In this document: positions 1,245 to 48,500 of the stretch, one piece after another
How the letters are laid out: each line of letters begins with the position of its first letter
Numbering within the stretch: the first letter of the stretch is position 1
Virus record (IMG/VR): IMGVR_UViG_3300025128_000017
Location: 32,158 to 96,157 of that record
From: a virus
Strand: one strand, 5' to 3'
Length of the DNA stretch: 64,000 nucleotides
Made by a program: the position numbers and the translations under genes
Notes under the pieces: model-generated
Seen by the model: the letters and a program-made list of their open reading frames with translations, nothing else
What the model was told of the DNA's origin: nothing
Database searches by the model: none

Positions 1245-1598
1245 TCATTCTTCCTCCATCTTAATTAATTTTTTATTCTGTTCTTTTAAATACTGTTCTT
1301 CTTCTAATCTATCTAAAGTAAACAACTTACAACTTTTACATGCAAATATTTTACCTAAATTAGTAATCATTGAAGCACTTTTTGTATTTTCCTCACCACA
1401 ACTAGGACATTTAGAATTATCTTCAGTCATCATATAGACTTCAATTAATTCCATCTCACCTCTAAAGTTGCCCTTGAATGTGCTGTACACAATGTCAATA
1501 GTTTCATCTGAACTATACTTCGCATGACCTGCATCTACCATTATATCATCTACACTCATATGGTTTTTACCTTTCTCTTTCATTTCACTTTCACCCAC
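1245..1598 (-). CDS. Zinc-ribbon protein
   Basis: CPSC...CKSC pair; start uncertain. Confidence 0.6.
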   Translation of the reverse strand: MGESEMKEKGKNHMSVDDIMVDAGHAKYSSDETIDIVYSTFKGNFRGEMELIEVYMMTEDNSKCPSCGEENTKSASMITNLGKIFACKSCKLFTLDRLEEEQYLKEQNKKLIKMEEE

Positions 1599-3285: not shown

Positions 3286-3428
3286 ACTGTCACCCTCGTT
3301 TCTTCTTCACATACATTACAGAAGGGATGTTCCTCACAGTCATCTGTAATCTCCATATCTTGATTCACCCACATCTTGAACTCCAAATCAGTAGAGCCAC
3401 AGTGTTTGCATTCAAACTTGTATGTCAT
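3282..3428 (-). CDS. Small Zn-ribbon protein (48 aa, below track cutoff)
   Basis: MTYKFECKHC...PFCNVCEEETRVTV; ATGA overlaps on both sides. Confidence 0.6.
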   Translation of the reverse strand: MTYKFECKHCGSTDLEFKMWVNQDMEITDDCEEHPFCNVCEEETRVTV

Positions 3429-3946
3429 GCTGTCACCCCCGTCCACCAGTCAGGCGGGCTTGTGTGTCTGTAATGCACACCACCTTTACTGTGTATCTTG
3501 CTGTGATAATAGGCACGATAGGCTTTGACTGCATCATCATCTTTGTACTCATCAGGCATAGCCTGAGCGAATGGTGTCAGTCTGTCTCTATTGAGATGGC
3601 TGAACCCATCAACGTGCATGGCATTCATGTAACAGATAGCATCCTCACAAGCATGTTCTTTGCCGAACCTGTGTCTGTACTCAACACACAGTGCTATCCC
3701 ATGTGATGTCAACCAGTCGAAGTTCTTCCATGAGTCACCAGCCCACACAGTGCATGGGTGATATTTGTACGCACCCTTGTATGGTGTGCCACTCTTGGTC
3801 AATGGCATACGCTCATCTGTGACACCATGCCTACGTAGGGCTGATGCCATCATCTGTGCTGTCTCAACAATCATTTTCGGCACTCTCACACAATCCATCG
3901 CCTGTGCTGCCCTAATTGGGTTTTCGTCTAATACAAATATATTCAT
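3425..3946 (-). CDS. Pyrimidine-dimer DNA glycosylase/endonuclease V-like protein
   Basis: MNIFVLD...KMIVETAQM...HPCTVW...EY..RFGK.H...QAMPDEYK...AYRAYY motifs typical of this viral family. Confidence 0.75.
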   Translation of the reverse strand: MNIFVLDENPIRAAQAMDCVRVPKMIVETAQMMASALRRHGVTDERMPLTKSGTPYKGAYKYHPCTVWAGDSWKNFDWLTSHGIALCVEYRHRFGKEHACEDAICYMNAMHVDGFSHLNRDRLTPFAQAMPDEYKDDDAVKAYRAYYHSKIHSKGGVHYRHTSPPDWWTGVTA

Positions 3947-4813: not shown

Positions 4814-5362
4814 TTAGTTCATCTCCTTAAACTTATCTGTTTCGTTACCCCAAATTTCCCAACCAGTTCTATTTTCCCTACTGAAAACATCTATCTTCTT
4901 AGAATTAGGATATAATTTATCTATCATTTCATAGGCATAGTTTGGTTTTCTGCTATGTTGTCTTGATTTTTCTTCAAACACTGTTAGTAATTTTCCTCTC
5001 ATATTTTCTGCTATCTTAATCATTTTTGGTTTGTAATACCAAATTAAATATTCATGAGAATATCTAACTGTAAATGCAGGTGCTACACCATTTAATTTAT
5101 TCCAAATAAATATGCAGTGTTTCTTATAACCTCTCTCAAACATATAGTCGTCAACTACTGTAATATATTTATCAATACACCACATAAAAACAGTATTAGT
5201 TTCATTTGCTTTGGGAAATATCTCTTTATCTAGCAACGCAAAAATATCCTCTATTTCCATAGTCACATAATCTAACTTTCTAGTTTGGTTCGGTCTAGTT
5301 TTTCTTAACCCGCCCTTACGTTTCTTCCACGGTGGGTCAATCATCAGAATATCATACTTCAT
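4814..5362 (-). CDS. MT-A70 family N6-adenine methyltransferase
   Basis: DPPW catalytic motif, FMW, IWNK, HSRKP, FSR..R.GW..WGNE. Confidence 0.9.
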   Translation of the reverse strand: MKYDILMIDPPWKKRKGGLRKTRPNQTRKLDYVTMEIEDIFALLDKEIFPKANETNTVFMWCIDKYITVVDDYMFERGYKKHCIFIWNKLNGVAPAFTVRYSHEYLIWYYKPKMIKIAENMRGKLLTVFEEKSRQHSRKPNYAYEMIDKLYPNSKKIDVFSRENRTGWEIWGNETDKFKEMN

Positions 5363-6107: not shown

Positions 6108-6135
6108 TTTTATTACCTCTTTTTATTATTTTAAT

Positions 6136-6153
6136 CTGTTCTTTTATATACTG
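6136..6153 (-). promoter_or_regulatory. Early promoter copy CAGTATATAAAAGAACAG
   Basis: Same core as copies at 12.4, 17.8, 19.6 and 21.0 kb; here followed by a leader with RBS (43 nt TATA to ATG). Confidence 0.8.
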
Positions 6154-6157
6154 TTTT

Positions 6158-7381
6158 TTAAATCCAATCATCCAAACTCCCCTTATCTAAACCTACATCT
6201 TTGTCACGTTCGACAAATTCATCAAAAGTCATTAATTTTTTATCACTAGGTATCACAACCTCTTTTGAACATACAAGATGTTCTTCAAAGTGTAAGAATA
6301 CAAGTGGTCTAACTCTACCGGATATGTCACACTTGTACTGTCTATCTTCCCATCTTTTTCCACCATTTTTTATTCGTAAGTTTTTAGAATTACTACCGTA
6401 CTTGTTTAATTTTATCAGATGTAGTTTACTAATTTCATTGTACGTTTCTAATGGATGGAACATCTCACCAGTTTCTTCACACTTCACTTCACAGTAATCT
6501 TCATAGTTCTCATCATCCAAAGTCATTTCACCTAACCCATACACCATATCTGTGCTACCACATATAGTACAAGGCAACTTAGCATTTGATTTCTTATCAG
6601 TTCTGAACTCGTACTGACCGCAAACATCACACCAGTATAAGACATAACCTTTGATATGAGTGTTAGGTATTGTCTTATGCTTACTTTTCTTGCTAGTAAA
6701 ATAATTCTTACCTACCTGCTTCTTCTTACTTTTCTTCTTACTATTCCTTTCTAACTCAAACTCAAGTTCATCAGGGTCAAATGCTTTTGATGGTGAACTC
6801 CAATCAAATACGGATGCTGAACTAGACAATGTTTGTACCTTATCTTCACCGTGTGGTATTTGACATACTGTGGCTATATATTCTTGTTGTGACTGGGCTT
6901 CTACTGCATGGCTACAATAACTGTCTCGTACCCACTGTATCAACTCACCTGCATCTTTCCATGTTTGATTCTTCTTCTCAATCATAAGGTGGGCTAAGAT
7001 AGCCAACTGAACACCAGTACGACCATGACCACCCATACATTGACAAGAGATAGATTTGATACCCTTGGTCTTTATATCAGCAACAAGTGATACCCAAAAC
7101 TCTCTACCTACATTACTAGGTATGCTGAAGTCAGGCCACTCTAATTCAATAATGTGTGGTGTATCAATTGCTTGTACATGATTAACACAAGTAAATCCGT
7201 CTGGTATAACATCAAACTTACGTGCTGTCCTGATAACACCTTGTGGACCAATGGCTAAATCAGGCCGTGGCTTCATTTGCATCCAACCACCATTACGTGT
7301 ATTACCACCAGCGTATATTCTAATACCATCACTTGTTTCAAACACTAAAGGATTACCTGTGTGACAATTTACTTTACTCAT
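6158..7381 (-). CDS. PTP/dual-specificity-type (Cx5R) phosphatase with C-terminal Zn-ribbon region
   Basis: WPD loop (WPDFSIP), CMGGHGRTG P-loop, AVE..SQ Q-loop; CDVC...CTIC. Confidence 0.85.
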   Translation of the reverse strand: MSKVNCHTGNPLVFETSDGIRIYAGGNTRNGGWMQMKPRPDLAIGPQGVIRTARKFDVIPDGFTCVNHVQAIDTPHIIELEWPDFSIPSNVGREFWVSLVADIKTKGIKSISCQCMGGHGRTGVQLAILAHLMIEKKNQTWKDAGELIQWVRDSYCSHAVEAQSQQEYIATVCQIPHGEDKVQTLSSSASVFDWSSPSKAFDPDELEFELERNSKKKSKKKQVGKNYFTSKKSKHKTIPNTHIKGYVLYWCDVCGQYEFRTDKKSNAKLPCTICGSTDMVYGLGEMTLDDENYEDYCEVKCEETGEMFHPLETYNEISKLHLIKLNKYGSNSKNLRIKNGGKRWEDRQYKCDISGRVRPLVFLHFEEHLVCSKEVVIPSDKKLMTFDEFVERDKDVGLDKGSLDDWI

Positions 7382-9762
7382 TCTAAAACACCTCCTGACA
7401 ATATTCTTGTCACTTGATTAGACCAGTCAACATTAGTGGTAATCATTTTCTTAAGATATTTCTTAAGCATGGCTGATAATGTTTTATACATCGGGTCTGA
7501 TTTAGTGAGACCATTCCAAGCATCAACAAATATTTGTGGCTCAATATCATTGTACTGTTTCTGTTTTATTAGTTGAGCAACACCGTATGCTTGTGGACTA
7601 GACTTGTCATGCTTCAATGCAAAGAATGCCGAAGGTGCGTCTTCTGTAAGTAACATGCTAGTAAACTCATTCCCTATTTCAAGAGACACATTGATTATAT
7701 TTTTATCCATACATGTTTCACAATCTTCATTACCACAAGGTATGAACATATCATCGTTCAAAGTATACTTAGTGTTGTGATGTAACCACTTACTTCCCAA
7801 CGAAAGAGCAGCACTACGTATAGAAGGTTGCATATGTTTAGATGTTATCCAAACTTCCCTGTAATGTGATGGCTTTCTATGCTTTGCTGTATAACTAAAC
7901 AAGGCCAACCAATCATTTTCAGGTTTGGTCGCCACAAATGTTTGCTCAATAAATGTACGTGTCACCTCGTAAGTTTTGAACATTCTACAAAGTGCTTTAT
8001 CTTCATGTCCAAAGTAACCTGTTGTGTCATCTGCATCGTTTAAGGTAGCATAATCAAATGCTGAACCCTCAAGGAACTTATTGTATAAACTACCATTGTT
8101 GTGTGCAAAGTTCTCAGCCATATTGGTATGTTTAACTACATTTTTGATATGAACTTCATCTTGACACGCCAAGAACTTGCGAATAGATTTAGCCAATTCA
8201 GCAGCACCGAATGCACAATCAGCCCATGCTTTACCACCAAATGCACCCGACCAACCTGTTTTGAATTGTTGACCACACCAATTTAACGCTAGTTCCATTT
8301 CTTCATAAGTTAAATCAAAACTTTCCATAGCAAGATAGTAATGTTTACGTTGCTTACTAGGTGTACTTTCATGATTTAGTTCAATCAGTTTTTTAGTACC
8401 TATTGCCGATACAAGCACTGGGGCAAACTCAATCGACATATCTTTCTTCATACCGAAACCATGTCTTAACTCACCAAGACATAAACCAACAGCGGCCTTA
8501 ACTAACCAACCTGAGAAAGCACCTGCTAACATCGAGTTATGTTTAGGATTCATGTTATGACCTGACAACCATTGGTGGAAATAATGTGCAAACCAACCTT
8601 GTTGTCTACGCCACTGTGTTCTACTTCGTTCTAAGCCATTAGCAAAAGCAGTAATATCATCAGATAGATATGGATTGTATGGGTTAGGGTCAATTGGAAG
8701 TCCTTCTTCTTTAGCAACATGTGTAGGGCTACCTTCTACCCACACATCACCAACAGATACATCAGCCACAATGTAAGGTATGTCATGTGCCCTACAATGT
8801 GCATAGACGTGACTACCTAATGAACCATTAGGGTGAGATATAACGAAGTCTTCAGGCATCTTGTCCTTAGTAATGTTGGCCTCTAACCACGCTAGTTCTT
8901 CCAAACCTTCTGTCTTCCATACGTGCTTGACTTCTATCTTACCAACACCATTAGGTACTGCACCCATTTCCATAGAAAGAGTTTCAACTGTTACACCATC
9001 AATTAATCTATTGTATACGAAAGGTGGACCACGAACTGTATGTGCTTCACTACCTCTTAATTGTGTAAATTTAGTTGAACCGTGTGCAAATTTTTCAGTT
9101 AAGTAGTTCATGTCTTTTTCATATACATATTCTAATTCGTATGTGTTTGGCTGATGACCTATTTCCTGAAAATGTTCAGCACAAGTCTTATCGTTTGGAT
9201 TAACTAAGTAACACAAGGTTACACCATCTTTACCAGCAGTAATACCATCATGGTCACGACCAATCCAAGCATAGACATTTGGTGCTAAAACCATACTAGA
9301 TGAAGCAGGGACAAAAGGTTGTAATATCATACAACCATTAGGGTCTGCTTCTTTCATAGTGGTACGTAGTCTACTCCATGAGTCTTCTAAATTATCGATT
9401 GTTACTTCAATAGATTCTAACACACCGTGTCTAGCAAATTCAGGACATGCTCTGAGGAAAGCAACATCGCTACCTATTCTATTAAAAGCACTAAGTACAA
9501 CATCGTATTCATCATCTAATAAGATTAATTCAGTATGTGGTACTTTGTATTTACCTTTACCTGACTTCACTACTTTTATGTAATTCAAAAAGGATTTAGC
9601 CTTCTGTGACTTGACCATAAAAACACGTTCATTGGTAGTAGTTTCTTGTAAAGTCCTACCTGTGTTTTTATCATCTGTCACTACTTCGTTTACTTCTTCA
9701 ACAAGTTGTTTGAACATATCTTCAAAATTCATTTCATCATATTGTTTTTCCATTTCATTCAC
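7378..9762 (-). CDS. PEP-utiliser-type phosphotransferase (ATP-grasp-like + phospho-His swivel + unknown C-terminal domain)
   Basis: GSLGSHVYAHCRAHDIPYIV resembles the GGxxSHxAxxxRxxxIP swivel signature; RACP, LQPFV, ELEY and TQLR resemble ATP-grasp elements. Confidence 0.7.
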   Translation of the reverse strand: MNEMEKQYDEMNFEDMFKQLVEEVNEVVTDDKNTGRTLQETTTNERVFMVKSQKAKSFLNYIKVVKSGKGKYKVPHTELILLDDEYDVVLSAFNRIGSDVAFLRACPEFARHGVLESIEVTIDNLEDSWSRLRTTMKEADPNGCMILQPFVPASSSMVLAPNVYAWIGRDHDGITAGKDGVTLCYLVNPNDKTCAEHFQEIGHQPNTYELEYVYEKDMNYLTEKFAHGSTKFTQLRGSEAHTVRGPPFVYNRLIDGVTVETLSMEMGAVPNGVGKIEVKHVWKTEGLEELAWLEANITKDKMPEDFVISHPNGSLGSHVYAHCRAHDIPYIVADVSVGDVWVEGSPTHVAKEEGLPIDPNPYNPYLSDDITAFANGLERSRTQWRRQQGWFAHYFHQWLSGHNMNPKHNSMLAGAFSGWLVKAAVGLCLGELRHGFGMKKDMSIEFAPVLVSAIGTKKLIELNHESTPSKQRKHYYLAMESFDLTYEEMELALNWCGQQFKTGWSGAFGGKAWADCAFGAAELAKSIRKFLACQDEVHIKNVVKHTNMAENFAHNNGSLYNKFLEGSAFDYATLNDADDTTGYFGHEDKALCRMFKTYEVTRTFIEQTFVATKPENDWLALFSYTAKHRKPSHYREVWITSKHMQPSIRSAALSLGSKWLHHNTKYTLNDDMFIPCGNEDCETCMDKNIINVSLEIGNEFTSMLLTEDAPSAFFALKHDKSSPQAYGVAQLIKQKQYNDIEPQIFVDAWNGLTKSDPMYKTLSAMLKKYLKKMITTNVDWSNQVTRILSGGVLE

Positions 9763-11482
9763 TCTCCACTATATTATCTGCACTATTTATTATTTTCATT
9801 TCATGTGGATGTATTGTTTTAGCATTGTCATCACTGTAACCAGCACCACTACGTCTTTTTAGATAACCTTCTTTGACTAAGTCTACCGCCTCATTAACTT
9901 CACTTGGATTACCAAACAAAAGCATATCTTTTACCTGTACAGCAGTCGGTAAATTTTCAGGGTCTTTATCCCATTTCATACTTAGAATTAAATCTCTTCG
10001 TACTATTCTTACACCTATATCTTCCTTTTCAACGTCAGTAAGAACTTCACTACCTGTTGTTAAATCCCAAGTTCTCTTATGTTTAGCAACACTACCTGTT
10101 GGCATTTTATCTATCAACTGTGGTATAAAAGCCCTCAATCGTGCTGCATGTTCAATATCCTTAAACAAATACGGTATCTCCCAATTGTTGTACCCAAGTA
10201 AAACATAAACTCGCTGTGGTTCTATGGGAGTCCATTGGAACTTAGCAATTTCATGACCATAGGATGACTTCTTGTCATACTTTGTGTATCTCCAACCATC
10301 GCCACATCTGCATATTGATTTGTCTGTGTGTTCTTCCGTTTCACCTGCTACATAACAAACTGAACATGCAGTATCATTTTCATTTCTGTTCTTACTTCGT
10401 GTGTCTTGAATCCAACTTGATACTTCTGTAAGCCAAGACCAGTCAGACCAACCATGTAATGCTCTCCTACCTATACCAGTTTTATTTACTAACCTACGAC
10501 CATCCCAATTTCTCATACGTTGTATTGAACCTTTGATTTCGTTTATCACTACTTCATCAGGTACACTTTGTGCTAGTGAACGTTTGACTCTATTGAATGG
10601 TACTATGCGACTTAGTGCTGTATTTCTAGCAGTTATATTTCTACGCTTAAATTGGTCATGATTCCAACCACTGTGAACAACACGACCCTTACCCCTATAC
10701 CAAATAGTATCCATTTCATCGGAGTCTTTTTCTTCTCTAATCATGTACCAATCAGTTGCAGTTACTTCATTGTGATGGGCACAACTACCATAGTTAGCAT
10801 CATCTCTTGTGTAACCGCACTCACCTTTCGTACGCTCCCATAGAAAACTAGTTGAAGACAAAAGTGCATAGTTGTCACTCATAAGTTCATGACTAATATT
10901 GAATTTGTCTGTACCGAATTTTTCTGCTAGATATAGTAATAGAGGTTTACATTCTTCTCTCATGAGGTATGCAGTGAAATTTGGCAAATTTGTTAAGTCC
11001 CCGTTTGTCAATTGGGGAGAATCACATCTAAAATGACACGCTTTCTTAACCACATCAGGTGCATCATCGTAGTACTCCCATTTGCTGATGCGACTACTAT
11101 TTTTCCAAGCAATTCTGCCTTCATATAGATAAGGAAGAGGTAGTTCATATTTAATAGTAAATACTTCATCATGTCCACATGATTCGACAAGAGGACTGGG
11201 TAAATTACCGTACCCTACCTTACCTGTCATCATAACTGTTGCAATACGTGTATTTTGATTTACCATATCTTTCCAAGTAAGTTGTGCTTGCTCTCCGTGG
11301 TTAGCAAGAGTGTACGCCACTGCTGCATCAATAGGCCAACACTTACTCAATTTATCCTGTATACGACCTAGTGTATTATCTACTAGAATAGGGTCATCTG
11401 TCCATAGTAAAGTTTCTTCTACTACACCTGCCGATACATATCTTTGCCAAGTATTCCAACCTTCTCTTTCTGCTTTACCCAT
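9755..11482 (-). CDS. Hypothetical protein (575 aa, Trp-rich)
   Basis: Long ORF, GGAGG RBS, coupled to the phosphotransferase gene. Confidence 0.8.
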   Translation of the reverse strand: MGKAEREGWNTWQRYVSAGVVEETLLWTDDPILVDNTLGRIQDKLSKCWPIDAAVAYTLANHGEQAQLTWKDMVNQNTRIATVMMTGKVGYGNLPSPLVESCGHDEVFTIKYELPLPYLYEGRIAWKNSSRISKWEYYDDAPDVVKKACHFRCDSPQLTNGDLTNLPNFTAYLMREECKPLLLYLAEKFGTDKFNISHELMSDNYALLSSTSFLWERTKGECGYTRDDANYGSCAHHNEVTATDWYMIREEKDSDEMDTIWYRGKGRVVHSGWNHDQFKRRNITARNTALSRIVPFNRVKRSLAQSVPDEVVINEIKGSIQRMRNWDGRRLVNKTGIGRRALHGWSDWSWLTEVSSWIQDTRSKNRNENDTACSVCYVAGETEEHTDKSICRCGDGWRYTKYDKKSSYGHEIAKFQWTPIEPQRVYVLLGYNNWEIPYLFKDIEHAARLRAFIPQLIDKMPTGSVAKHKRTWDLTTGSEVLTDVEKEDIGVRIVRRDLILSMKWDKDPENLPTAVQVKDMLLFGNPSEVNEAVDLVKEGYLKRRSGAGYSDDNAKTIHPHEMKIINSADNIVESE

Positions 11483-11483
11483 C

Positions 11484-12116
11484 TTAGTTACCTCCTGATG
11501 GTGCGTATGTCATTTCAAAATTCAATTTTGACCAATCGAGAACATACCTTGCTTTCAAAATCTTAGCACTTTGAGCATCTTCTTTCAAATCCCAATCGTT
11601 CTCAAGATATTTCTTATTCGTTACACCATAAAACATACCACGAGGTATACATGCAGGGATTGGTTCTTTAACTGCTTTATCTTTCTGTGGACCATTCTCT
11701 AACGTGTAACTTACTCCAACATTATGTTCCCAAGTAAAACTAATTGGTTTCAATTTAGATACATCAATATCTTTTTGTTTAAACCACCACAACATTTGTT
11801 CTCCATAGGGATGGTTACACAGACCAGACTCAGTCGTTGTGTATACTTTCAAAATATCGCCGTCAGTTGTTTCAGGTTTCATCGCACTACTCAATTGCAA
11901 ATACTCAACAGTATCTTTGTTCCACTTGCGGTCTCCCCAATTGGCAATTGCGAATATTTGTCCTGTCTCTTCGTGTTCCCAACCACCACATCTTTGTCCG
12001 TAGCCACTACCACCACAATAGAATAAACGCACCTTTCCATCAGGACATTCAAATCCCACTTTTTCGCCTTCTACCCATTGACCATTCTCTATCTTATCAC
12101 TTATATCTTCACTCAT
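11484..12116 (-). CDS. Hypothetical protein
   Basis: 210 aa, ATGA overlap with upstream gene. Confidence 0.75.
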   Translation of the reverse strand: MSEDISDKIENGQWVEGEKVGFECPDGKVRLFYCGGSGYGQRCGGWEHEETGQIFAIANWGDRKWNKDTVEYLQLSSAMKPETTDGDILKVYTTTESGLCNHPYGEQMLWWFKQKDIDVSKLKPISFTWEHNVGVSYTLENGPQKDKAVKEPIPACIPRGMFYGVTNKKYLENDWDLKEDAQSAKILKARYVLDWSKLNFEMTYAPSGGN

Positions 12117-12358
12117 TCTTCATTCACTCCTATTACCTCATTCCACATTTCATTTGCTTCAGTTGGTGTTACAACTGTGGTAAATATTGTATCTGATGAT
12201 ACATGTATATCTACATCTATAACCTTTGGATGATTACTTCCCAGTACTCTCATCTGTATAGCAGTTATATCACTATATCTAATGGCAGTAGCATAATCCA
12301 TACCATCTCTTTTTGTTACCACTTCAATCCATTTTTCATTCTTATTGTCATTCAACAT
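12113..12358 (-). CDS. Small beta-rich hypothetical protein
   Basis: Start corrected to the ATG 29 nt after the TATA box. Confidence 0.65.
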   Translation of the reverse strand: MLNDNKNEKWIEVVTKRDGMDYATAIRYSDITAIQMRVLGSNHPKVIDVDIHVSSDTIFTTVVTPTEANEMWNEVIGVNEE

Positions 12359-12370
12359 AGTTTCTTTATG

Positions 12371-12393
12371 TTCTGTTCTTTTATATACTGAAA
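12371..12393 (-). promoter_or_regulatory. Early promoter copy TTTCAGTATATAAAAGAACAGAA
   Basis: TATA starts 12387, ATG at 12358 (29 nt), consistent with a leaderless archaeal transcript. Confidence 0.85.
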
Positions 12394-15958: not shown

Positions 15959-16263
15959 TCTTCCTCGCCTCCTAATTCAGCATCTAACCTAGCCAACTCT
16001 TCACGTAATGCTACTCTTCTTGCTTTCTTCTTACGCAATTCAACTATCGCTTTCATAGCAACAGGGTCATAGTCATCAGTGTTACCTTCAGTCTCAAACC
16101 AATCAAGCAAGTCATCGAACCTCGATATGATTTCAGGTGCATACCAATGTCCAAACATATTCATTGTACCTGACTCCTGTACACTACGGTAATCATCCCA
16201 CATGGCTTTCGTTACGTTTGCTAACATTCTTCTTTGTATTTCATTTTGTGTTAATCCTCTCAT
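15955..16263 (-). CDS. Hypothetical protein (SG..NMF motif, DUF5049-like)
   Basis: YRSVQESGTMNMFG; recalled similarity only. Confidence 0.5.
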   Translation of the reverse strand: MRGLTQNEIQRRMLANVTKAMWDDYRSVQESGTMNMFGHWYAPEIISRFDDLLDWFETEGNTDDYDPVAMKAIVELRKKKARRVALREELARLDAELGGEEE

Positions 16264-17204
16264 TCTTCCTCGCCCCCTAGTATCGCTGACAGTATGTAGT
16301 CAGCCGCTTTCTGTGCATCACCAAACGCTTTGTTCAATGCTTTGTCTTTATCTTTGCAAGCCTTGAGCCATGACTGTAAGTATGCTACGTTGTTAGCATT
16401 CTCTTCGGCCACCAAGTCAGGCTTGAACTCACCACCAAGAGTGAGTGTAACAATCAATGAACCAAGTTCAGCAATCAATTCCTCGTAGGCATACTCCGCC
16501 GAACCAAAGTGAGACTTGAGATTTCTATTTAGTCTTGTTGCATATCCAGTGGAGTGAACTGCCTCATGTATAGCAGTCATCACTTCACCCATGCTGTCAG
16601 TGAATGACTCATGTGGTGGTAGTACAATCTTATCGTGTACTGGTGTATAGTATGCTCTGTCGCCACCTCTTGAGTAATCAAGATTGACTTGCGATGCTAC
16701 GTATTCATCCATGTGTTCCATCATTTCTGACACAGGTACAATCTCTTCAGCATTCTCAACAACGGGTGCTACGTAGTCCTCACATTGTTCAACACAAAAC
16801 ACTTCATAGTATCTAAGTGTACGACCGTAGTGTTCTTCTTCCTCACCCTCATCATTCTTCTTAGTGTACTTAGTAGTATTGAACCACTTGATGCTTACAC
16901 CTGTACCATTCTTCAAGCCTTTGATTGACATTTTCTTAGCCATCAACTGCTTACGTGTAGCAAACCGTAGGTCAGTCCAACCATTAGTCATCGCTTCAAT
17001 CCAAAGCATGACTAGATTACCACCACGATATGATTTCTTAGACACTAGATTGGATGGCATACTACTCTTACCACCCTTCCAATGCTTACGCCAAGCCAAC
17101 TTCTCACCCTGTATCGCACCCTCTAGTTTCTGAAACCACTCATCGTTAGCAGTTTCTCTCTTCATCTTTGCATATTGTTTCTTCTGTTGTATACTCATCG
17201 TCAT
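16260..17204 (-). CDS. ardC: ArdC-like antirestriction protein (ssDNA-binding + zincin-like domain)
   Basis: P.N..S.K.YRG.N, AYY.P..D.I.LP, HEAVHSTG...RLNR, YAYEELIAELGS. Confidence 0.9.
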   Translation of the reverse strand: MTMSIQQKKQYAKMKRETANDEWFQKLEGAIQGEKLAWRKHWKGGKSSMPSNLVSKKSYRGGNLVMLWIEAMTNGWTDLRFATRKQLMAKKMSIKGLKNGTGVSIKWFNTTKYTKKNDEGEEEEHYGRTLRYYEVFCVEQCEDYVAPVVENAEEIVPVSEMMEHMDEYVASQVNLDYSRGGDRAYYTPVHDKIVLPPHESFTDSMGEVMTAIHEAVHSTGYATRLNRNLKSHFGSAEYAYEELIAELGSLIVTLTLGGEFKPDLVAEENANNVAYLQSWLKACKDKDKALNKAFGDAQKAADYILSAILGGEEE

Positions 17205-17743: not shown

Positions 17744-17756
17744 CTCCTTTCTTTAT

Positions 17757-17773
17757 TGTTCTTTTATATACTG
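17757..17773 (-). promoter_or_regulatory. Early promoter copy CAGTATATAAAAGAACA
   Basis: TATA starts 17770, ATG 17743 (27 nt). Confidence 0.8.
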
Positions 17774-19554: not shown

Positions 19555-19577
19555 TTCTGTTCTTTTATATACTGAAA
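19555..19577 (-). promoter_or_regulatory. Early promoter copy
   Basis: TATA starts 19571, ATG 19542 (29 nt). Confidence 0.85.
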
Positions 19578-21016: not shown

Positions 21017-21038
21017 TTCTGTTCTTTTATATACTGAA
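21017..21038 (-). promoter_or_regulatory. Early promoter copy
   Basis: TATA starts 21033, ATG 21004 (29 nt). Confidence 0.85.
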
Positions 21039-38358: not shown

Positions 38359-39528
38359 ATGAAAATAGAAGTAGGTGGTCTTAGTATGCAGATGTTTGCA
38401 GATAACGGCGAAGGGTGGTTTGAAACACACTTAGGTTGTACAGCATCTGATTTTGTTGGTAGATTAAAAAAAGCAAGAAGGCATAATAAACATTCAAAAG
38501 AAGAAATCGATGGTATGATAAACGATGTTAGAATGTTAAAAGCATTGGAAGTAAGAGGTACATTAGAATCTGTTTCATGGTGCGAAGGTTATGAAAATGT
38601 TATACATAAATTTGGATTGAGTGATAGAGATTTAAAATCACTTAGAAAATTTGGCGATACAAGAAAGGCTAGTTTAATTCGTGCATGTAATCAATGGCAA
38701 GAAGCAGATGAATTACTTTCTAAACTCGATGAACATGTAGAAGTTTGGGGTAAAGAAGAAGAAATGGCTTGGGTGCAAGCGATGAATATCAGAAAAGATG
38801 CTAAAAAATTATGGAAAACTACATTGCATCAAATGGATAAGTTAACTGAAAAAGAAACAGATGCTTTGATAAAAAGTGCGGAGTTACTCACAGAAAGAGG
38901 TTCAATGTCAGGTAGAGGACTTTTTGAAAATTTATCTGATGCTAAAATATTACACAAAAGTATGACACCAATGAAATTATCAAAACTAATCAGTGTTTAT
39001 GGTGAAGAAGTTGACATAATTGCAGGAGGTAAAAGAGGAACTTTTGTCAAAATGGATAAGTCAGGTTTAATATTGAAAGACCCGTATGCATATGCGGCAG
39101 GATTTTTAGATGCTGATGGTTATATTTCTATAACTAAAAGAGGAGAGCCAAGAGCAGGATTTGTTGCTACAGGTTCAAGAGGTAAAATTCATTGCGAGCA
39201 GTTACAAAAAACATTAGGTTGTGGTGTTTTACAACTAGACCAAAAAATATACAAAGATAGTCAAAGAAGTCAGCATCGTTTACAATTTTATTCTAAAAGT
39301 GACATTCGTAAATTATTAACTCAAATACTCCCACATTTAAAAATGAAAGATTTACAAGCCAAAGCGGTACTTGCTTTTATCGATGAAACTGATAGTGTGA
39401 GAAAAGAAGAGTTACAAAAATTAGTTAAATACAGCAATTGGAGTGATGATACTATTAAGGCAAGTGACCTTTTAACAGAATGGGGTGTCGCTTCTGACGA
39501 TATCGCCAAGTGGAAGGAGGGATTATAG
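38359..39528 (+). CDS. LAGLIDADG-domain protein with long N-terminal extension
   Basis: YAAGFLDADGYISIT...LPHL..K..QA. Confidence 0.8.
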   Translation: MKIEVGGLSMQMFADNGEGWFETHLGCTASDFVGRLKKARRHNKHSKEEIDGMINDVRMLKALEVRGTLESVSWCEGYENVIHKFGLSDRDLKSLRKFGDTRKASLIRACNQWQEADELLSKLDEHVEVWGKEEEMAWVQAMNIRKDAKKLWKTTLHQMDKLTEKETDALIKSAELLTERGSMSGRGLFENLSDAKILHKSMTPMKLSKLISVYGEEVDIIAGGKRGTFVKMDKSGLILKDPYAYAAGFLDADGYISITKRGEPRAGFVATGSRGKIHCEQLQKTLGCGVLQLDQKIYKDSQRSQHRLQFYSKSDIRKLLTQILPHLKMKDLQAKAVLAFIDETDSVRKEELQKLVKYSNWSDDTIKASDLLTEWGVASDDIAKWKEGL

Positions 39529-42578: not shown

Positions 42579-45500
42579 GTGCAAGAAAATGACATCGAGA
42601 TTTACTTAAGGCACAGAAATGATTTTTTAAAAAGTATTTTACAGTATGAAGACTATGACGATGAATTACTTTCTTTATCAAATACTATTATCAATCTCCA
42701 AAACAAAAACATATCTTTCACTAAGTCGTGGATAGATGAATATTGTCTTAAAATGGCGAGTGAAATAAGACCTGATTATATCATTAAAGAAAAAATTAAT
42801 CTTGAAAACTTACCAATAGATAATATCAGTATCAAGGATTTGGTGAATAGTAATCCTAATTTATCTAATAACGAAATACTTGCAAAATTAAAAGAAATGA
42901 GAAGTCAACGAAATCCTCCGTTTAAAACGAATTTTGATGATGATGATATTTTGATGCGTATTAACGATATTCGTTTTAAAAAATCAAAATTAAATCCAAC
43001 ACAATGGATAGAACAAGGGAATCCTCCTCCTACTAAAAGAGTTGTAAATGAAGTTAGTAGAGAAGAAGATTATGGTAGAATGAAAGGTAATGTAAAAGGG
43101 AGACAGTCTGCTGCCGATGAAGCCAATTTTCGTAATATTGATGAATATTTATTAGATGAAGGAAGAAGTTTAAGCGAAAGTGCTTCTTTATGGCCTACTA
43201 CGAAATCCGGTATAAGTCATTTTTTCGATAACAATAATCCTATGGTAGAACAACATCCAGTTAATGGTTTACCAAGACATTTAGATACTTCTATTAGATA
43301 CGTTTTAAGTGGTGAAGCAGATAAAGTGAAAAAAGCGGTAGAAGAACATTATGAGCACCATAAAAAATCTAAAAATCCGGTTGTGAGTGGAGTTGTGAAA
43401 CCAACTGGTTTAGGTACAAACATAAAAAATGTAAATACTGATGAAGATAAAGTACAAAAAAATGAAATTTACCATCCATTTATAGGTGAGACTAGTCAAA
43501 ACGGGGGATTAAATGGTTCACAATTACATGCTAAATCTTTAGAACAATTCAAAATGAATAACTTAGATACTGAATTTGATGGTAGAGAGTTAGATAATTT
43601 ATTTGAAGGGACTAAAAAAGTAAGTGAAATGAGTGATGATGAGATATTGAAAACTCATCTTATGACTTGGGCTGAAAAATCTAAAAGTAAAGATTTTATT
43701 AAACCTGATAAAACATACAAAGAATATTTGGCGGCTCAAGGTTTGGGTGAAAGTGAAATTACTAAAAAAGTTGAAGATGAACTAAGACAAGATTATGTTG
43801 CGAATGGGAAACAATGGCCTGAAGATGTTAAAGAACAAATTGCTATAGTTCAAAATCGTCTTGGTGAAATGCATGGTGATAATCATTATCATGGTGTTGG
43901 TTTTCTTACACATGCATTAGGTATAGAATTTTTATCACCACAAGATAGAACTACTGTTTTTAATCATTTGATGGAACATGGTACTGATAATGCTGATAAG
44001 CAAGTTATACAACTTTCTGACGGTAAATTAAATATGAGTTATTTGAAAACTCAAATGATGAGCCGTGTAATACCAGCATTAAATCATTCACAAAGAGCAC
44101 CAAATTTTGCTGGCCCTAATCTTTCTGCTAAATTTGAAGATGAAAAATTAAAATTTAAAGATAAATCGAGAACATTAGGTTTTGCAAATCATCTTTTAGA
44201 TAATTTAATTTTTACTCACGATGATGCACGTCATCCTAATTATGACGAGTTTAACAAAGGTGTAATGTCACAATATTTAATGGATGAACTAGGTCATGAT
44301 ATTTGCCGACAAGATGCTGAAAACGCACTTACAGGTGATAATAATCTTTCTTTATCTGATTTATTAGAGCATCATGGGATAAATGGTTATTATCAAAATG
44401 GTAAAATGAAAAAATTCACTACTGAAAACAGTTTTAATCAAAAATACAAAGATGGTAGAAATCTTGATGGTGAAACTTGGGGGCAAGTTGCTTTAAGAGA
44501 AAAAAGAGCCGCTGTAGAAAATAATGCTATCAAATGGCCTTCTTTAAGTAAAACGGGTATTGAGTTCGGTAATTTAAATAAAAAGCACATTAAAGAAATT
44601 TTAAATTGGGCAGATTATTATAGAAAATTAGATAAAACACCAGCAGAAATGAATTTAAGTGAAAAAACAGGTAAAGCATCACCTTTATGGTCAGCATATA
44701 CAAATTGGGCTGAAGGGAAAAAAGCACCTCATAGAAATCTTAATGAAAATGCACATGCAAACGAAGTGATGGAAAGAAGTGGAAATAAATGGAAATGGAA
44801 TGATATGGTTAATTTTCTCGGTTTCAACGAAAAGACAAATGAGGATGGTAGTATTACTTATAGTGAAAGGGGAAAACATGACATGTTACCTTTGCGAAAT
44901 ACACCATATTTTACTAACAAAGAAATGCAAGCAGTAAAAGAACATTATGAACATAGTAGAAGTTTATCTAATAAATCTAAAAATATTAGAAATATTTCAA
45001 AACCTTTTAGGATAGGCTCTAATGGTATTAGAAAAGAAGATTTACCTAAATCTGAAGATGGAATAACGGAATACGGTGTAGATAAAGGATTCTTAACAAG
45101 TGAAAAAGATGAAAATAAACTTGAAGGTTTAGGTAGAATGTTTCATGACATTTACGATACAAGGGGTGGACATGGTATATCTGATACTCAGTTCTTATCT
45201 ATTTTACATGACCATCATGCACACTATGTAAATAAAAACGCTAAAGTCGGTGAAGTATATTCAAAATCTATTTTTGGTGAGAAAAGACGACAAAGTTTAG
45301 ACGATATTAATGAACAAGGTAAATCTCAATCATTTAGTAGTACTTTATCCCCTTTGATGCACAATGAAAAAATAACAGGTTTAATTAGTTTTTTACTACC
45401 TAGTAATTTACCAGCAGGTGCAAGAATACATAAAGGGGTAAAAGACATAATGAGTTTACACGGTTCAAGTTCTATTAGAACTCGAAAAGATGAAAATGGT

Positions 45501-48500
45501 AATGTAACATTATCACCCGGTTTAAATGATAAAAATGATACTGACCGTATATCGGCTAGACATCCTGATGTAATCAATCAAGGTAAAAGAAGAGATAAAT
45601 TTGGCGACATAGATGGTGGAGATGCATATTTTATTAATACACATGGTAAAAATCCACATGTTTTACACGACCCCTACGTTGTTAGTAATCGAGTCAATTC
45701 TTTCATTTCAGATGGTAAAATTAACAATCTATCGAAAATAAAACAAATATTAGGCATGAGCCATGCTATGAGTCATAGAGGTAGTGATATTGTATCAGAT
45801 ATAAGGCAAAAAAATGATATTGGTGATTTTTGGGGTTTTGATTTTGGTTTACATAATAATGGGAAACCTAATACATTCCTTAAGAGTAAAGATATTTTAA
45901 GCCCTGAAAATATTAAAAAATTAAAAATAAATACAGATATTGACGAGTCACAATTAAGAGAATTACTTGCTTTGTCAACTAAAGTTGGGAGAAAAGAGTT
46001 TGCAGATGAGATACATGATTTTACACAATCACCGATAAATAATCAAGAAATACAACAAGGTACTGTTGAAGACATAGGTTCTCTTTTAGAACAATTAAAA
46101 GGAGAAAAATTAGAATTAGAAACTAGAAGAGATTCAGCAGGTCTATCATATGAGAAATTTGGCTCAACACAACAAGATTATGATAAAGGTCCATTAAATG
46201 ATTTTAGTAGAACTTCTGCTATCTATAAGCCGTTAAATACTAGTGAAAAAAATAGATTAAAAGAGTTAGATGAAGAAATAAATCATGTACAAAATCAACT
46301 AAACGTGATAGAAGATAAGCATTATTCTAATAGTTTCAGTGCAGAAAAAAATCGTTTTGACCACGAAGAAGAAGGGAGAGTAAGAGATGAACATGCTAAA
46401 TTGGATTTTGCTAAAGAACATTTGTTACCTAAAGTGCTTGAAAATTTTCCAGATGCTTTTAATGCAGATGTAGTAGGGGCACACCAAGTCAAAATTAACA
46501 TGGCACAATTATTGCACGATGCAGAAATTGGATTGTTAACTGTACCTCATAAAGTGCATAATTTGAAAAGTTATGGTAGTGTAATAGGTGAAAGTGAATC
46601 GCAGACTATGCAACAACTTAGTAAAACAGGTAAAGGTCATCATGACGATATACAGAAAATAATGAGTCAACATGGAGTTGGTTTGAATGATTTTGGTAAC
46701 GATGAATATGGTAATTCTAATTTAACTGCACAAAATTTAGTAGAAAAACTTGGTTTAGAACTTAATCCAGATAATTTAATGTATGCTCAACAATTAATAA
46801 ACAGTCATATTGGTAAAAATAATAAAGTTATGACTTTAGGACAATTGCTTAGTAAGCATCCAAATCTTTCAAAAATACCCAAATTAGATGAAAATGGGGA
46901 ACAAATGATAGATGAAAATGGGGAACAAATCTATGAAGATACTTGGGATAAAACTAATAATTCTAAAGAACGTCAAGAACTACTTGCAAGTCATTATAGA
47001 AAAGCATCGCAAGCCGTACCGCCTACTTTAGAAAAAATACCTAAAAGAGATGAATTTGGTAATTTAGTAAAAGATGAAGAAGGTAACATGGTGTTTGATA
47101 TGCAACCTAAAAAAATATCAAGAGGTAAACTAGCAACAGGTGGCTCTTTTGATTTACATCCAAATCCTACTAAAGTAAGAAACGAGCATTATAGAACTCA
47201 TCCAATATATAATCACATAAGAGATATACATAAAAAAATGAATATTTCTCCAAAGAGTGCACAATTTGATTCATTAAAAAATGATTACGGTTTAGTCTAT
47301 GAAAAGAACGGTGAAATAGGAAGTGGTATGAATGTAGGGAAAAAACAGCATAAAGACAATTTACATAACATGTTAGACAGTGTTATAGTTTATGATGCTG
47401 ATTATGATGAAAAACTAGCCAACCCGACTGATGAAAAAACAATAACTAGACCAAGTTTTTCACAAGGTGAAGTAGAAATACATCCACATCATGAACAGAA
47501 AGGTAGAACCTTATCTACAGTATATACTGGTGGCGGTATTGCTCCAATAGCAAGTACTATGACAAACTCACAAGCAAATTTCGCATTTAATTTCACCAAA
47601 GGAGGAAATATAAACATAGGGAATTATGCTACACCTCGTGCTCATGTTCCGCCACCTGCTGGTGTTTACCCATATATATTAGGGGAAGAACAACATCAAA
47701 TGAATACAAATGTCGTTTTAGGAGACCAAACATCGGCTCAAATACATGAAAATCCTCAAACGTCTTCTCAAAGTGACGAACTTGTTTATGCTGATATATC
47801 TCATGTGGCTAAAGCCGAATTGCCTATAGAAATGCCTTTAATAGAACCTTTACATAAAATATTCAAAATTACCGATATTGAACAATTAAGAGGATTTACT
47901 GGTGAATGGGTGGCTTCTATACAAGAAGATGGTAAAAGATTGAAAGTAAAAAGAACAGGAAACAGAATTACTTTAACTGATGGAAATGCACAAAGAGTAG
48001 ATAGTTATAGTGAAATGGATAAGTATTTTAGAAAAATTACTAGTAAAAATTATGTTATAGATGTCATTATGAATGACGAAGGTATTTTCATCAGTGACGT
48101 AATGCATTACGATGGGACAGATGTGACCGATTTAGATACTAGAGATAGAATGAAACTACTTAGAGGTCAGTTTGAAAGTCATAATTTTATTCATGTGCTT
48201 GGTCCTTCAACTTTAAAAATTACAGACGAAGATGGTCTTGAAAATGCAGTGAAAGATTTACTATCTGATAATAAAGATAAAAAGATATTACTAAGAGATG
48301 CTAAATCTACATATATGAAAGGAGAAGAAAAACATCCGAAATGGATTATGATGACTAAGTCATACGATGATTATCATATTCCTTTTGATATGGAAATTGA
48401 AAATGAACAGTTCATATTACATTTTGCTGACGACATTGTGAAATATGATATTTTAGATGACGGGGTATTACTAGACGTTTTGAATCCTAAAAGTATGTTA

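What the first reader, a model, noticed from the sequence alone, without database searches (positions are those of the whole stretch)
6158..12393. Five-gene early operon with a dikinase-like writer and a PTP-like eraser
Seen: one promoter (12387) precedes genes of 81, 210, 575, 794 and 407 aa, ending at the next promoter. The 794-aa protein has ATP-grasp-like motifs, a phospho-His swivel signature (His codon 8809-8811) and a novel C-terminal domain (GGKAW...HNNG...NKF). It is ATGA-coupled to a phosphatase with WPD and CMGGHGR (7019-7039). Known: ATP-grasp plus swivel plus substrate domain is the architecture of PEP synthase, glucan-water dikinase and rifampin phosphotransferase. Inference: a viral reversible phosphorylation system acting on an unknown substrate (host protein, defence nucleotide or glycan), with the 575- and 210-aa proteins as partners.
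Basis: partly seen in the sequence, partly recalled or inferred. Interest (0 to 1): 0.82.

Follow-up and report, generated by a model that had tools for sequence, protein, structure and literature searches.

The report
Viral dikinase-like enzyme with obligate phosphatase partner
A marine virus carries an unannotated enzyme built like pyruvate-phosphate dikinase or rifampin phosphotransferase (ATP-grasp, phospho-histidine swivel, new helical substrate domain), always encoded next to a cysteine phosphatase; the pair recurs in about a hundred unrelated viral contigs, so it is a widespread viral phosphorylation module whose target is unknown.

Summary

**The 407-aa protein.** It is a Cys-phosphatase with WPD, CX5R-T and a Q-loop (profile against classical PTPs, E 4.6e-6), followed by a zinc-ribbon tail.

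**New here.**
- The kinase family has about 1,100 clusters at 50% identity. It has no Pfam, PHROG, NCBIfam or PADLOC model and is virtually virus-only.
- A phosphatase homologue lies beside the kinase in 99 of 104 viral loci. The other five loci are cut by contig ends.
- No other neighbour is conserved family-wide.
It is adjacent in most loci of the clade and fused to the kinase in two distant members.

The substrate remains unidentified, and "writer/eraser" is still an inference. No description was found in the searched papers.

The parts
12372..12390 (-). 19-nt promoter-like motif CAGTATATAAAAGAACAGA at the head of the unit
   Evidence: Six copies in the window, all on the minus strand, 0.03 expected. 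A strong terminator-like hairpin lies just upstream at 12624-12601.
12113..12358 (-). 81-aa gene, lineage-specific, function unknown
   Evidence: ORF. A homologue was found only in L002.
11484..12116 (-). 210-aa gene, lineage-specific, function unknown
   Evidence: Homologues only in L002 and L030. No family hit.
9755..11482 (-). 575-aa gene, conserved only in the magrovirus-like clade, no recognisable family; W/R/G-rich invariant positions
   Evidence: Present in 31 of 45 close loci, upstream or downstream of the pair. Alignment A2. No PDB, Pfam or Atlas lead.
7378..9762 (-). 794-aa dikinase-like phosphotransferase (whole gene)
9028..9615 (-). ATP-grasp nucleotide-binding domain (about residues 50-245) with invariant K54, R104, Q148, D172-G-x-T175, E209/E211, Q234/R236
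   Evidence: Foldseek and VIA matches to ATP-grasp enzymes. Invariant columns. Same motif order as a bona fide PPDK_N protein.
8698..9015 (-). Swivel (mobile) domain, about residues 250-355; catalytic His318 at 8809-8811 in G-S-L-G-S-H..R..I-P-Y
   Evidence: His invariant in A1 and A6. The VIA alignments extend through the swivel domains of PPDK and RPH. 17 of 47 members give weak PF00391 hits. hhalign puts H318 on the T-S-H of a canonical swivel.
8038..8697 (-). Conserved helical acceptor-domain core (about residues 356-575) with invariant R386, H396, E431, R433, R472, W504, G509-G510, N547, H554-N555, K562
   Evidence: Conserved out to the most distant relatives. Modelled alone at pLDDT 84.5. 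No convincing fold match.
7381..8037 (-). Clade-specific C-terminal extension (residues 576-794) with a H661/C676/C681/C684 zinc-knuckle-like cluster (Cys codons 7711-7737)
   Evidence: Invariant within A1. Absent from the 569-aa podovirus homologue.
6158..7381 (-). 407-aa Cys-phosphatase (whole gene), ATGA-coupled to the kinase
6842..7381 (-). PTP-like catalytic domain (residues 1-180): WPD 7130-7138, C115-X5-R121-T122 7016-7039, Q165/Q166 6884-6889
   Evidence: Profile A4 against PDB: PTPRO/CRYP-2 at E 4.6e-6, aligned across the WPD loop, P-loop and Q-loop. Invariant columns.
6257..6634 (-). Zinc-ribbon-like region of the phosphatase (CxxC at 251 and 271, further Cys at 297, 301, 351)
   Evidence: The same profile region (positions about 200-350) is also matched in many distant phosphatases.
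6135..6153 (-). Next copy of the promoter-like motif, 5 nt after the phosphatase stop codon
5694..6107 (-). 137-aa gene: small domain with H-x-Q...N-R-x-Y-G...S-x-A...Y signature and an acidic EEE tail; the best-supported third component
   Evidence: Follows the phosphatase in 34 of 41 close loci. Related domain next to the kinase in distant loci L075, L098 and L110. Fused to the kinase C-terminus in P0160 and P0167.

Best explanation
The 794-aa protein belongs to a large, uncharacterised, essentially virus-restricted branch of the phospho-histidine 'swivel' phosphotransferases (the PPDK, PEP synthase, rifampin phosphotransferase and glucan-water-dikinase superfamily). The inferred mechanism has three steps. 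The minimal ATP-grasp domain binds ATP and passes the beta-gamma pyrophosphoryl group to His318 on the swivel domain, releasing AMP. The gamma-phosphate is then lost, probably to water as Pi. The swivel carries the beta-phosphate to a new all-helical domain, where a conserved Arg/His/Glu/Asn/Lys cluster holds an acceptor that becomes phosphorylated. The translationally coupled 407-aa protein is a Cys-based phosphatase (Cys115 nucleophile, Asp84 general acid, Arg121 and Thr122 in the P-loop, Gln165 for hydrolysis) with a zinc-ribbon tail. The two genes form an obligate, self-contained two-gene module, so they most likely act on the same acceptor or on consecutive intermediates. A small H-x-Q/N-R-x-Y-G domain protein (the 137-aa gene) is an accessory that touches the kinase, as an adaptor or a phospho-acceptor. 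The acceptor is not pyruvate or PEP. My ranking for it: nucleic acid or nucleotide about 35%, protein about 30%, glycan or small molecule about 25%. What is shown: the folds, the motifs, their conservation, the gene linkage and the fusion. What is inferred: catalysis, the fate of the gamma-phosphate, the shared substrate and the biological role (host takeover or counter-defence early in infection).
Against: No member reaches a Pfam gathering score for PPDK_N or PEP-utilizers, and sequence searches of the PDB find nothing for the kinase. The assignment therefore rests on a predicted structure plus motif logic. No residue-level superposition on PPDK or RPH could be made. A kinase strictly paired with a phosphatase on one substrate looks futile unless the two act on different positions or at different times. 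Nothing here identifies the acceptor. The 137-aa-type domain is detectable in only a minority of distant loci, so it cannot be shown to be universal.
Confidence: 0.72

Rival explanations
1. Nucleic-acid end-healing module, working like T4 polynucleotide kinase-phosphatase but built from other folds. The dikinase phosphorylates 5'-OH ends, and the Cys-phosphatase removes 3'- or 2',3'-cyclic phosphates from RNA or DNA cut by host defence nucleases. A host or viral ligase then seals the break. This is a specific version of the main explanation in which the two enzymes act on different positions.
For: It is the one well-known viral case in which a kinase and a phosphatase are always coupled (established knowledge of T4 Pnkp). 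The module is self-contained with no third universal partner, which fits a universal substrate. There are zinc ribbons on the phosphatase and a zinc knuckle on the kinase. The pair sits among DNA-metabolism and anti-restriction genes here, in phage J26 and in the podovirus.
Against: No Cys-phosphatase is known to me as a 3'-phosphatase of nucleic acids, and no swivel dikinase is known to act on polynucleotides. No ligase is conserved nearby. No nucleic-acid-binding fold was identified in any component.
Confidence: 0.2
2. Protein writer/eraser pair. The kinase phosphorylates a host or viral protein (possibly the 137-aa-type domain itself, on its invariant Tyr, Ser or His), and the PTP-like enzyme reverses it. 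This would give the virus a switch or timer, or disarm host proteins as the T7 kinase does.
For: The nearest solved relatives of the phosphatase are classical phosphotyrosine phosphatases, including the Q-loop. The 137-aa-type domain keeps invariant Y36, Y69, S61 and mostly H22, and is adjacent or fused to the kinase. Precedents: Enzyme I passes phosphate from a swivel His to HPr (established knowledge). A PPDK-derived regulatory kinase, VadK, has been reported (PMC13400623). Broad protein phosphorylation by T7 kinase disarms defences (PMC13645617).
Against: Known ATP-grasp/swivel dikinases phosphorylate small molecules or glucans. The phosphatase lacks the N-terminal part of classical PTPs that forms the pTyr pocket (domain about 180 aa). 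The candidate acceptor domain is not detectable in most distant loci.
Confidence: 0.2
3. Sequential metabolite pathway (counter-defence or salvage). The phosphatase and the AMP-releasing phosphotransferase act one after the other on a small molecule or glycan. Examples are the plant glucan-water dikinase with the SEX4/LSF2 glucan phosphatases, or the phage NARP1-AP pathway, where a phosphatase prepares the substrate of a pyrophosphokinase.
For: GWD/PWD with SEX4/LSF2 is the only known natural pairing of a swivel dikinase with a DSP-type phosphatase (established knowledge). The NARP1-AP precedent is in bioRxiv 10.64898/2026.01.28.702374. All characterised ATP-grasp/swivel enzymes use small-molecule or glucan hydroxyls.
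Against: No carbohydrate-binding module or nucleotide-salvage gene is linked. The virus has no ThyA/ThyX-type hydroxymethylase, so thymidine-type DNA hypermodification is not supported. The phosphatase zinc ribbons are unexplained.
Confidence: 0.18
4. A true pyruvate phosphate dikinase or PEP synthase acting as an auxiliary metabolic gene, as the analogous gene of Vibrio phage J26 was annotated.
For: PPDK is among the best structural matches. The J26 paper calls its gene a PPDK (PMC12038007).
Against: The PEP/pyruvate-binding TIM barrel is absent. The C-terminal 440 residues are all-helical in two independent models and match no barrel. The J26 protein also lacks a PEP-utilizers_C hit. Strict pairing with a phosphatase has no place in that role.
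Confidence: 0.03
5. An ATP-grasp ligase (RimK- or LysX-like) that adds residues to the acidic C-terminal tail of the 137-aa protein; not a kinase.
For: RimK with S6 is the top Foldseek row, and LysX/ArgX also appear. The 137-aa protein ends in EEE in most close relatives.
Against: These rows are tied with all other ATP-grasp enzymes and lie below RPH and PPDK in Z. Ligases have no swivel His domain, whereas the His here is invariant. The acidic tail is not kept in distant or fused versions.
Confidence: 0.05

Closest known systems
Pyruvate phosphate dikinase / PEP synthase
   Different: The ATP-grasp lacks the helical insert (44 against about 135 residues between the first two motifs). The acceptor domain is a helical bundle with no TIM barrel. 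No Pfam threshold is reached. It is always paired with a phosphatase.
Rifampin phosphotransferase (RPH-Lm, 5hv1/5hv2)
   Different: RPH has the order ATP-grasp, rifampin-binding domain, His domain; here the His domain is in the middle. The helical domain modelled alone does not retrieve RPH.
Glucan-water dikinase with SEX4/LSF2 glucan phosphatases (plants)
   Same: The only known system in which a swivel dikinase and a Cys-based DSP-type phosphatase work on the same substrate in a phosphorylation and dephosphorylation cycle.
   Different: No carbohydrate-binding module was found, the domain order differs, and the context is viral. The resemblance is functional analogy recalled from knowledge and was not tested.
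Vibrio phage vB_VneS_J26 'PPDK' (WYC17966) plus 'protein-tyrosine phosphatase' (WYC17968)
   Same: An ATP-grasp/swivel enzyme without a PEP-binding domain lies one gene away from a PTP that is 27% identical to the 407-aa protein's catalytic domain (E 4e-8). It is a cultured phage, so it is experimentally tractable.
   Different: Its kinase is a canonical PPDK_N/PEP-utilizers protein that aligns with this family only at the swivel motif. Its neighbours are unrelated to the 137- and 575-aa genes. It was published as a carbon-metabolism AMG.
T4 polynucleotide kinase-phosphatase
   Same: A viral kinase and phosphatase that are obligatorily coupled and self-contained.
   Different: It uses a P-loop kinase and a HAD phosphatase fused in one chain. 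There is no fold relationship.
Classical and dual-specificity protein tyrosine phosphatases (PTPRO, PTP-SAK, Tc-R-P families)
   Same: WPD-type Asp, C-X5-R-T P-loop and Q-loop Gln. Relatives score on PF00102, PF22784 and PF22785.
   Different: The catalytic domain is only about 180 aa, with a distinct conserved N-terminus (C6-H7, G25-G26-x-x-R29) and a zinc-ribbon tail. This protein itself stays below the Pfam threshold (18 against 20.9 bits).

Membership tests
Swivel phospho-His phosphotransferases (PPDK/PEPS/RPH/GWD superfamily) | ATP-grasp nucleotide-binding domain | tested here: met
Swivel phospho-His phosphotransferases (PPDK/PEPS/RPH/GWD superfamily) | Mobile domain carrying the catalytic His in a G-G-x-T/S-S-H...R...P motif | tested here: met
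   G-S-L-G-S-H318...R324...I-P-Y; the His is invariant in A1 and A6. The structural alignment runs through the PPDK and RPH swivel domains. hhalign places H318 on the canonical T-S-H.
Swivel phospho-His phosphotransferases (PPDK/PEPS/RPH/GWD superfamily) | Scores above the Pfam gathering thresholds of PF01326 (PPDK_N) and PF00391 (PEP-utilizers) | tested here: not met
   No hit for this protein. Only sub-threshold PF00391 hits in 17 of 47 relatives, best E 0.0088. It is therefore a very divergent branch, not a member of the curated families.
Swivel phospho-His phosphotransferases (PPDK/PEPS/RPH/GWD superfamily) | ATP converted to AMP, with the beta-phosphate passing via phospho-His to the acceptor | not testable with these tools
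   Needs a biochemical assay.
PPDK / PEP synthase proper | C-terminal PEP/pyruvate-binding TIM barrel (PF02896) | tested here: not met
   Residues 356-794 are all-helical in both models. No Pfam hit.
Rifampin phosphotransferase | Domain order ATP-grasp, rifampin-binding domain, C-terminal His domain | tested here: not met
   The His domain lies at residues 250-355, between the ATP-grasp and the helical domain.
Rifampin phosphotransferase | Acceptor domain homologous to the RPH rifampin-binding domain | tested here: inconclusive
Glucan-water dikinase | N-terminal carbohydrate-binding modules with the nucleotide-binding domain at the C-terminus | tested here: not met
   The ATP-grasp is N-terminal and no CBM family was hit.
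Cys-based protein tyrosine phosphatase superfamily | C-X5-R-(S/T) P-loop | tested here: met
   C115-M-G-G-H-G-R121-T122, invariant in 36 sequences.
Cys-based protein tyrosine phosphatase superfamily | General-acid Asp on a loop about 30 residues upstream (WPD) | tested here: met
   W82-P83-D84, with P83 and D84 invariant, aligned to the WPD of PTPRO/CRYP-2.
Cys-based protein tyrosine phosphatase superfamily | Q-loop glutamine of classical PTPs | tested here: met
   Q165 is invariant and aligns with the Q-loop in the profile alignment.
Cys-based protein tyrosine phosphatase superfamily | Pfam PF00102 gathering score | tested here: not met
   18.0 bits against a cut-off of 20.9 for this protein. 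Several homologues carry a precomputed PF00102 hit, and the family profile reaches E 4.6e-6 against solved PTPs.
Cys-based protein tyrosine phosphatase superfamily | Phosphotyrosine-recognition loop (KNRY) that sets pocket depth | not tested
   The alignment to PTPs starts after that region.
ATP-grasp ligases (RimK/LysX type) | Acyl-phosphate ligase with no phospho-His carrier domain, producing ADP | tested here: not met
   An invariant swivel His domain is present. The reaction product is not testable here.
Single transcription unit (operon) | Same strand, overlapping or abutting genes, one promoter motif at the head, none inside | tested here: met
   Transcription itself was not observed, because no RNA run holds the stretch.

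The most novel reading that the evidence does not exclude
A previously unrecognised, self-contained viral enzyme pair spread across many unrelated tailed viruses of bacteria and probably archaea. A swivel-His dikinase with a new acceptor-binding fold and its dedicated Cys-phosphatase would together chemically edit a universal host or viral macromolecule (RNA or DNA ends, or a conserved protein) as a general host-takeover or counter-defence strategy. A new small H-x-Q/N-R-x-Y-G domain would serve as adaptor or phospho-carrier. That would be a new substrate class for dikinase chemistry and a new kind of viral weapon.
Probability: 0.35. Interest if true: 0.88.

Novelty: new variant of a known kind. 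Interest (0 to 1): 0.72.

Why it matters
Swivel-His dikinases are few, and each known one has a distinctive substrate: pyruvate, starch, rifampin or phenols. This work adds a branch of about 1,100 sequence clusters that no database names. It is confined to viruses, has a new acceptor domain, and is almost invariably linked to a phosphatase. That pattern signals a conserved but unknown step of infection. The catalytic residues are clear (H318 in the kinase, C115 in the phosphatase), so the open question of what is phosphorylated becomes directly testable with labelled ATP and a trapping mutant. The result also corrects a published reading: the analogous gene of Vibrio phage J26 lacks a PEP-binding domain and is unlikely to be a carbon-metabolism PPDK.

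Tried and rejected
- **Complex prediction.** Kinase plus 137-aa protein gave no verdict (runs 0.00, 0.73, 0.00), so it is no evidence either way.
- **Database blanks for the kinase.** Sequence searches against the PDB found nothing useful, as a single sequence or as a profile. The same holds for PHROGs, NCBIfam and PADLOC.
- **Phage-record blanks.** megablast and tblastn of the region and the kinase against 50,697 phage records gave no match. Only a distant family member found four metagenomic podoviruses.
- **ESM Atlas.** Only chance-level leads for the 575-aa protein (calpain at 0.84) and nothing for the kinase C-terminal domain.
- **137- and 575-aa proteins.** No PDB or Pfam lead. A search for longer fused forms of the 137-aa family in the large database found none. 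The two fusions came from scanning the kinase family itself.
- **Long kinase forms.** The N-terminal extensions of the 1,100-1,400-aa forms have no Pfam domain.
- **Phage J26 neighbours.** The genes annotated CsrA, membrane protein and PDC are not related to the 137- or 575-aa genes.
- **DNA-hypermodification idea.** The virus has no ThyA or ThyX homologue.
- **Bacterial and archaeal genomes.** The scan found one hit, on a 30-kb MAG contig. The scan uses two peptide patterns, so absence is weak evidence.
- **Expression.** No RNA holder is listed for the stretch, so expression and transcript ends could not be examined. Read laying was not used, because only assembled contigs of DNA runs were on offer.
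- **Literature.** Searches found no description of this family.

Full report
**1. Observation.**
The five minus-strand ORFs, their sizes and their junctions are as described.
- The 794-aa and 407-aa genes share an ATGA overlap, preceded by AGGAGG.
- The 81/210 junction is also an ATGA overlap, and 210/575 are 1 nt apart.
- 575/794 overlap by 8 nt if GTG 9762 is used, or are 1 nt apart if ATG 9753 is used.
- The 19-nt motif CAGTATATAAAAGAACAGA stands at 12372-12390 and 6135-6153, with no copy between. It occurs six times in the window, always on the minus strand, against 0.03 expected.
- A strong hairpin plus T-run (12624-12601) closes the preceding unit.
- His318 is codon 8809-8811 and C115-R121 is 7019-7039. 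All quoted motifs are present.

**2. The kinase.**
Sequence methods see nothing: Pfam, PHROGs, NCBIfam and the PDB by sequence are all blank.

The big databases do hold relatives. There are 75 close relatives. With a profile, there are 1,103 clusters at 50% identity, of which 956 fall below 1e-10. None tested carries a Pfam domain.

An AlphaFold model built from 47 sequences is confident (pLDDT 86.7, pTM 0.79). Foldseek lists ATP-grasp enzymes at probability 1.0, and also aligns rifampin phosphotransferase and PPDK over their full length.

VIA-align ranks the matches as follows:
- The Foldseek-independent scan agrees.

The invariant residues are K54, R104, Q148, D172-G-x-T175, E209/E211, Q234/R236 and G-S-x-x-S-H318...R324. 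They stay invariant in 30 relatives of only about 20% identity.

The motifs come in the same order as those of a phage protein that is an unquestioned PPDK_N/PEP-utilizers member: V-R-S, I-Q-L-M-V, G-E-D-V-V-A-G, D-I-E-F, L-Q-T-R and G-G-F-T-S-H. hhalign puts H318 on that protein's catalytic His. 17 of 47 members give sub-threshold hits to the PEP-utilizers mobile domain.

**3. The acceptor domain.**
Residues 356-794 are all-helical. I modelled them alone from 32 sequences (pLDDT 84.5). The searches found:
- Foldseek: nothing (TM at most 0.18).

This is below the noise level the tool itself states for helical proteins.

The part conserved across the whole family is residues about 356-575. It carries R386, H396, E431, R433, R472, W504, G509-G510, N547, H554-N555 and K562.

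Residues 576-794, with a His/Cys3 cluster, are specific to the clade of this virus.

There is no PEP-binding TIM barrel, so this is not a PPDK or a PEP synthase.

**4. The phosphatase.**
The single sequence is just below the Pfam threshold for Y_phosphatase. A profile of 36 homologues hits classical PTPs in the PDB (PTPRO/CRYP-2, E 4.6e-6). The alignment runs through the WPD loop, the C-X5-R-T P-loop and the Q-loop.

P83, D84, C115, G117-G123 and Q165 are invariant. The C-terminal half carries CxxC pairs. That region is matched again in many distant phosphatases.

**5. Linkage.**
This is the main new result.
- In 45 viral contigs encoding close relatives (27-67% identity), the phosphatase lies directly downstream in all 41 that have DNA there. 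The stop and start codons usually abut or overlap.
- In 59 further loci found with a profile of distant members, a phosphatase homologue is adjacent in 58. It is downstream in 54, upstream in three, and divergent in one. The remaining locus ends at the contig edge.
- All-against-all clustering of every ORF in the 104 loci finds the kinase in 104 and the phosphatase in 99. No other protein is shared between the two sets.
- Contigs range from 16 kb to 448 kb. They include a complete 41-kb freshwater podovirus in GenBank, in which both genes are demonstrably homologous (hhalign 99.2% and 97.1%).
- Six loci of the second set lie on contigs already in the first set, so distinct contigs number roughly 95.
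- The bacterial and archaeal genome scan returned only one 30-kb MAG contig.

**6.
- The 81- and 210-aa genes occur only in the closest one or two relatives.
- The 575-aa gene occurs in 31 of 45 close loci, on either side of the pair, and nowhere outside the clade. Its invariant positions are mostly G, W and R, which does not look catalytic.
- The 137-aa gene lies just beyond the next promoter-like motif. It follows the phosphatase in 34 of 41 close loci.
- Its signature is H-x-Q...N-R-x-Y-G...S-x-A...Y. The signature reappears next to the kinase in three distant loci. It is fused to the kinase C-terminus in two distant family members (P0160 and P0167). That fusion is Rosetta-stone evidence for a physical link.

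**7. Context.**
The record is a 96-kb virus, estimated 88% complete.
- It encodes terminase, portal and protease.
- It encodes a family B polymerase, an RFC-like clamp loader, an ERCC4/HhH nuclease and a Cpn60/TCP1 chaperonin.
- That gene set is the one reported for magroviruses of Marine Group II archaea (PMC10160649, PMC11706807).
- One related contig is filed in NCBI under an archaeal MAG.
- The host assignment is an inference and was not tested by phylogeny.

Around the pair lie an SNF2 helicase, an MT-A70 methylase, a DenV-like glycosylase and an ArdC-like anti-restriction protein. This points to an early, host-directed region. The stretch is present in marine metagenomes from many studies.

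**8. Mechanism.**
I commit to dikinase chemistry. ATP donates its pyrophosphoryl group to His318, AMP leaves, the gamma-phosphate is shed, and the beta-phosphate goes to an acceptor held by the helical domain. The phosphatase uses the standard Cys115 thiophosphate cycle.

The strict, self-contained pairing means one shared substrate or pathway. Whether the pair writes and erases the same group, acts on two positions (as T4 Pnkp does), or acts in sequence (as in NARP1-AP) cannot be decided here.

My acceptor ranking:
- Nucleic acid or nucleotide, about 35%: zinc ribbons, DNA-metabolism neighbourhoods in three unrelated viruses, and the universality of the substrate.
- Protein, about 30%: classical-PTP features, and invariant Tyr and Ser in the linked small domain.
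- Glycan or small molecule, about 25%: every characterised relative, and the plant dikinase/phosphatase cycle.

**9. Comparison and novelty.**
The chassis is known. Three things are new:
- a very large divergent viral branch;
- a new acceptor domain;
- an obligate phosphatase partner, plus a recurrent small accessory domain.

The only published mention I found of anything similar is the J26 phage paper. It reads its canonical-type version as a PPDK for carbon metabolism (PMC12038007). That protein has no PEP-binding domain, and its phosphatase is related to this one, so that reading is doubtful.

**10. Limits.**
- The fold assignment rests on predicted structures.
- No residue-level superposition could be made.
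- The complex prediction gave no verdict.
- No RNA data are available.

Noticed in passing
window 1277-1295, 6135-6153, 12372-12390, 17755-17773, 19556-19574, 21018-21036 (all minus strand): A near-invariant 19-nt motif CAGTATATAAAAGAACAGA heads successive minus-strand units. There is no conserved -35-like element upstream, and start codons lie 2-40 nt downstream. It could be an archaeal TATA-type promoter or the promoter of a virus-specific transcription factor.
   Followed up: partly
window 16260-17204 (-): ArdC-like anti-restriction protein (ArdcN plus a zincin-like MPTase-PolyVal domain) in the same early region.
   Followed up: no
window 3425-3946 (-) and 4814-5362 (-): A DenV-like pyrimidine-dimer DNA glycosylase and an MT-A70 adenine methyltransferase lie downstream of the module.
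   Followed up: no
L049 13793-15286, 17380-18081; L050 2095-4443, 7797-8729 (rest of the 96-kb record): Cpn60/TCP1 chaperonin, ERCC4+HhH nuclease, family B DNA polymerase and RFC-like clamp loader. This is a magrovirus-like gene set that suggests an archaeal (Marine Group II) host.
   Followed up: partly
window 42579-49010 (+) and L049 6112-12747 (+): Two giant ORFs (2,143 and 2,211 aa). The first has no PHROG match; the second was not searched.
   Followed up: no
window 38359-39528 (+): A 389-aa ORF with an HNH endonuclease domain sits between the large terminase and the portal gene.
   Followed up: no
L074 and L089 (same 108.6-kb contig IMGVR_UViG_3300005077_000007): One viral contig carries two diverged kinase genes about 8 kb apart, each with its own phosphatase gene, one pair co-directional and one divergent.
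   Followed up: no
L075 3983-4873 and 6739-7212: A distant locus has two copies of the 137-aa-type domain. One is just upstream of the kinase and one lies between the kinase and the phosphatase.
   Followed up: partly
L047 14495-16570 (Vibrio phage vB_VneS_J26, PP534163): The protein published as a pyruvate phosphate dikinase has PPDK_N and the swivel domain but no PEP-utilizers_C domain, and it lies one gene from a PTP-SAK-type phosphatase. The neighbour annotated as 'pyruvate decarboxylase' has no Pfam hit. The AMG annotations look unsafe.
   Followed up: partly
PHROG phrog_17568: The PHROG that matches the phosphatase domain (E 5e-17) is labelled 'thymidylate synthase'. That label does not fit a CX5R phosphatase and looks like a mislabel.
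   Followed up: no
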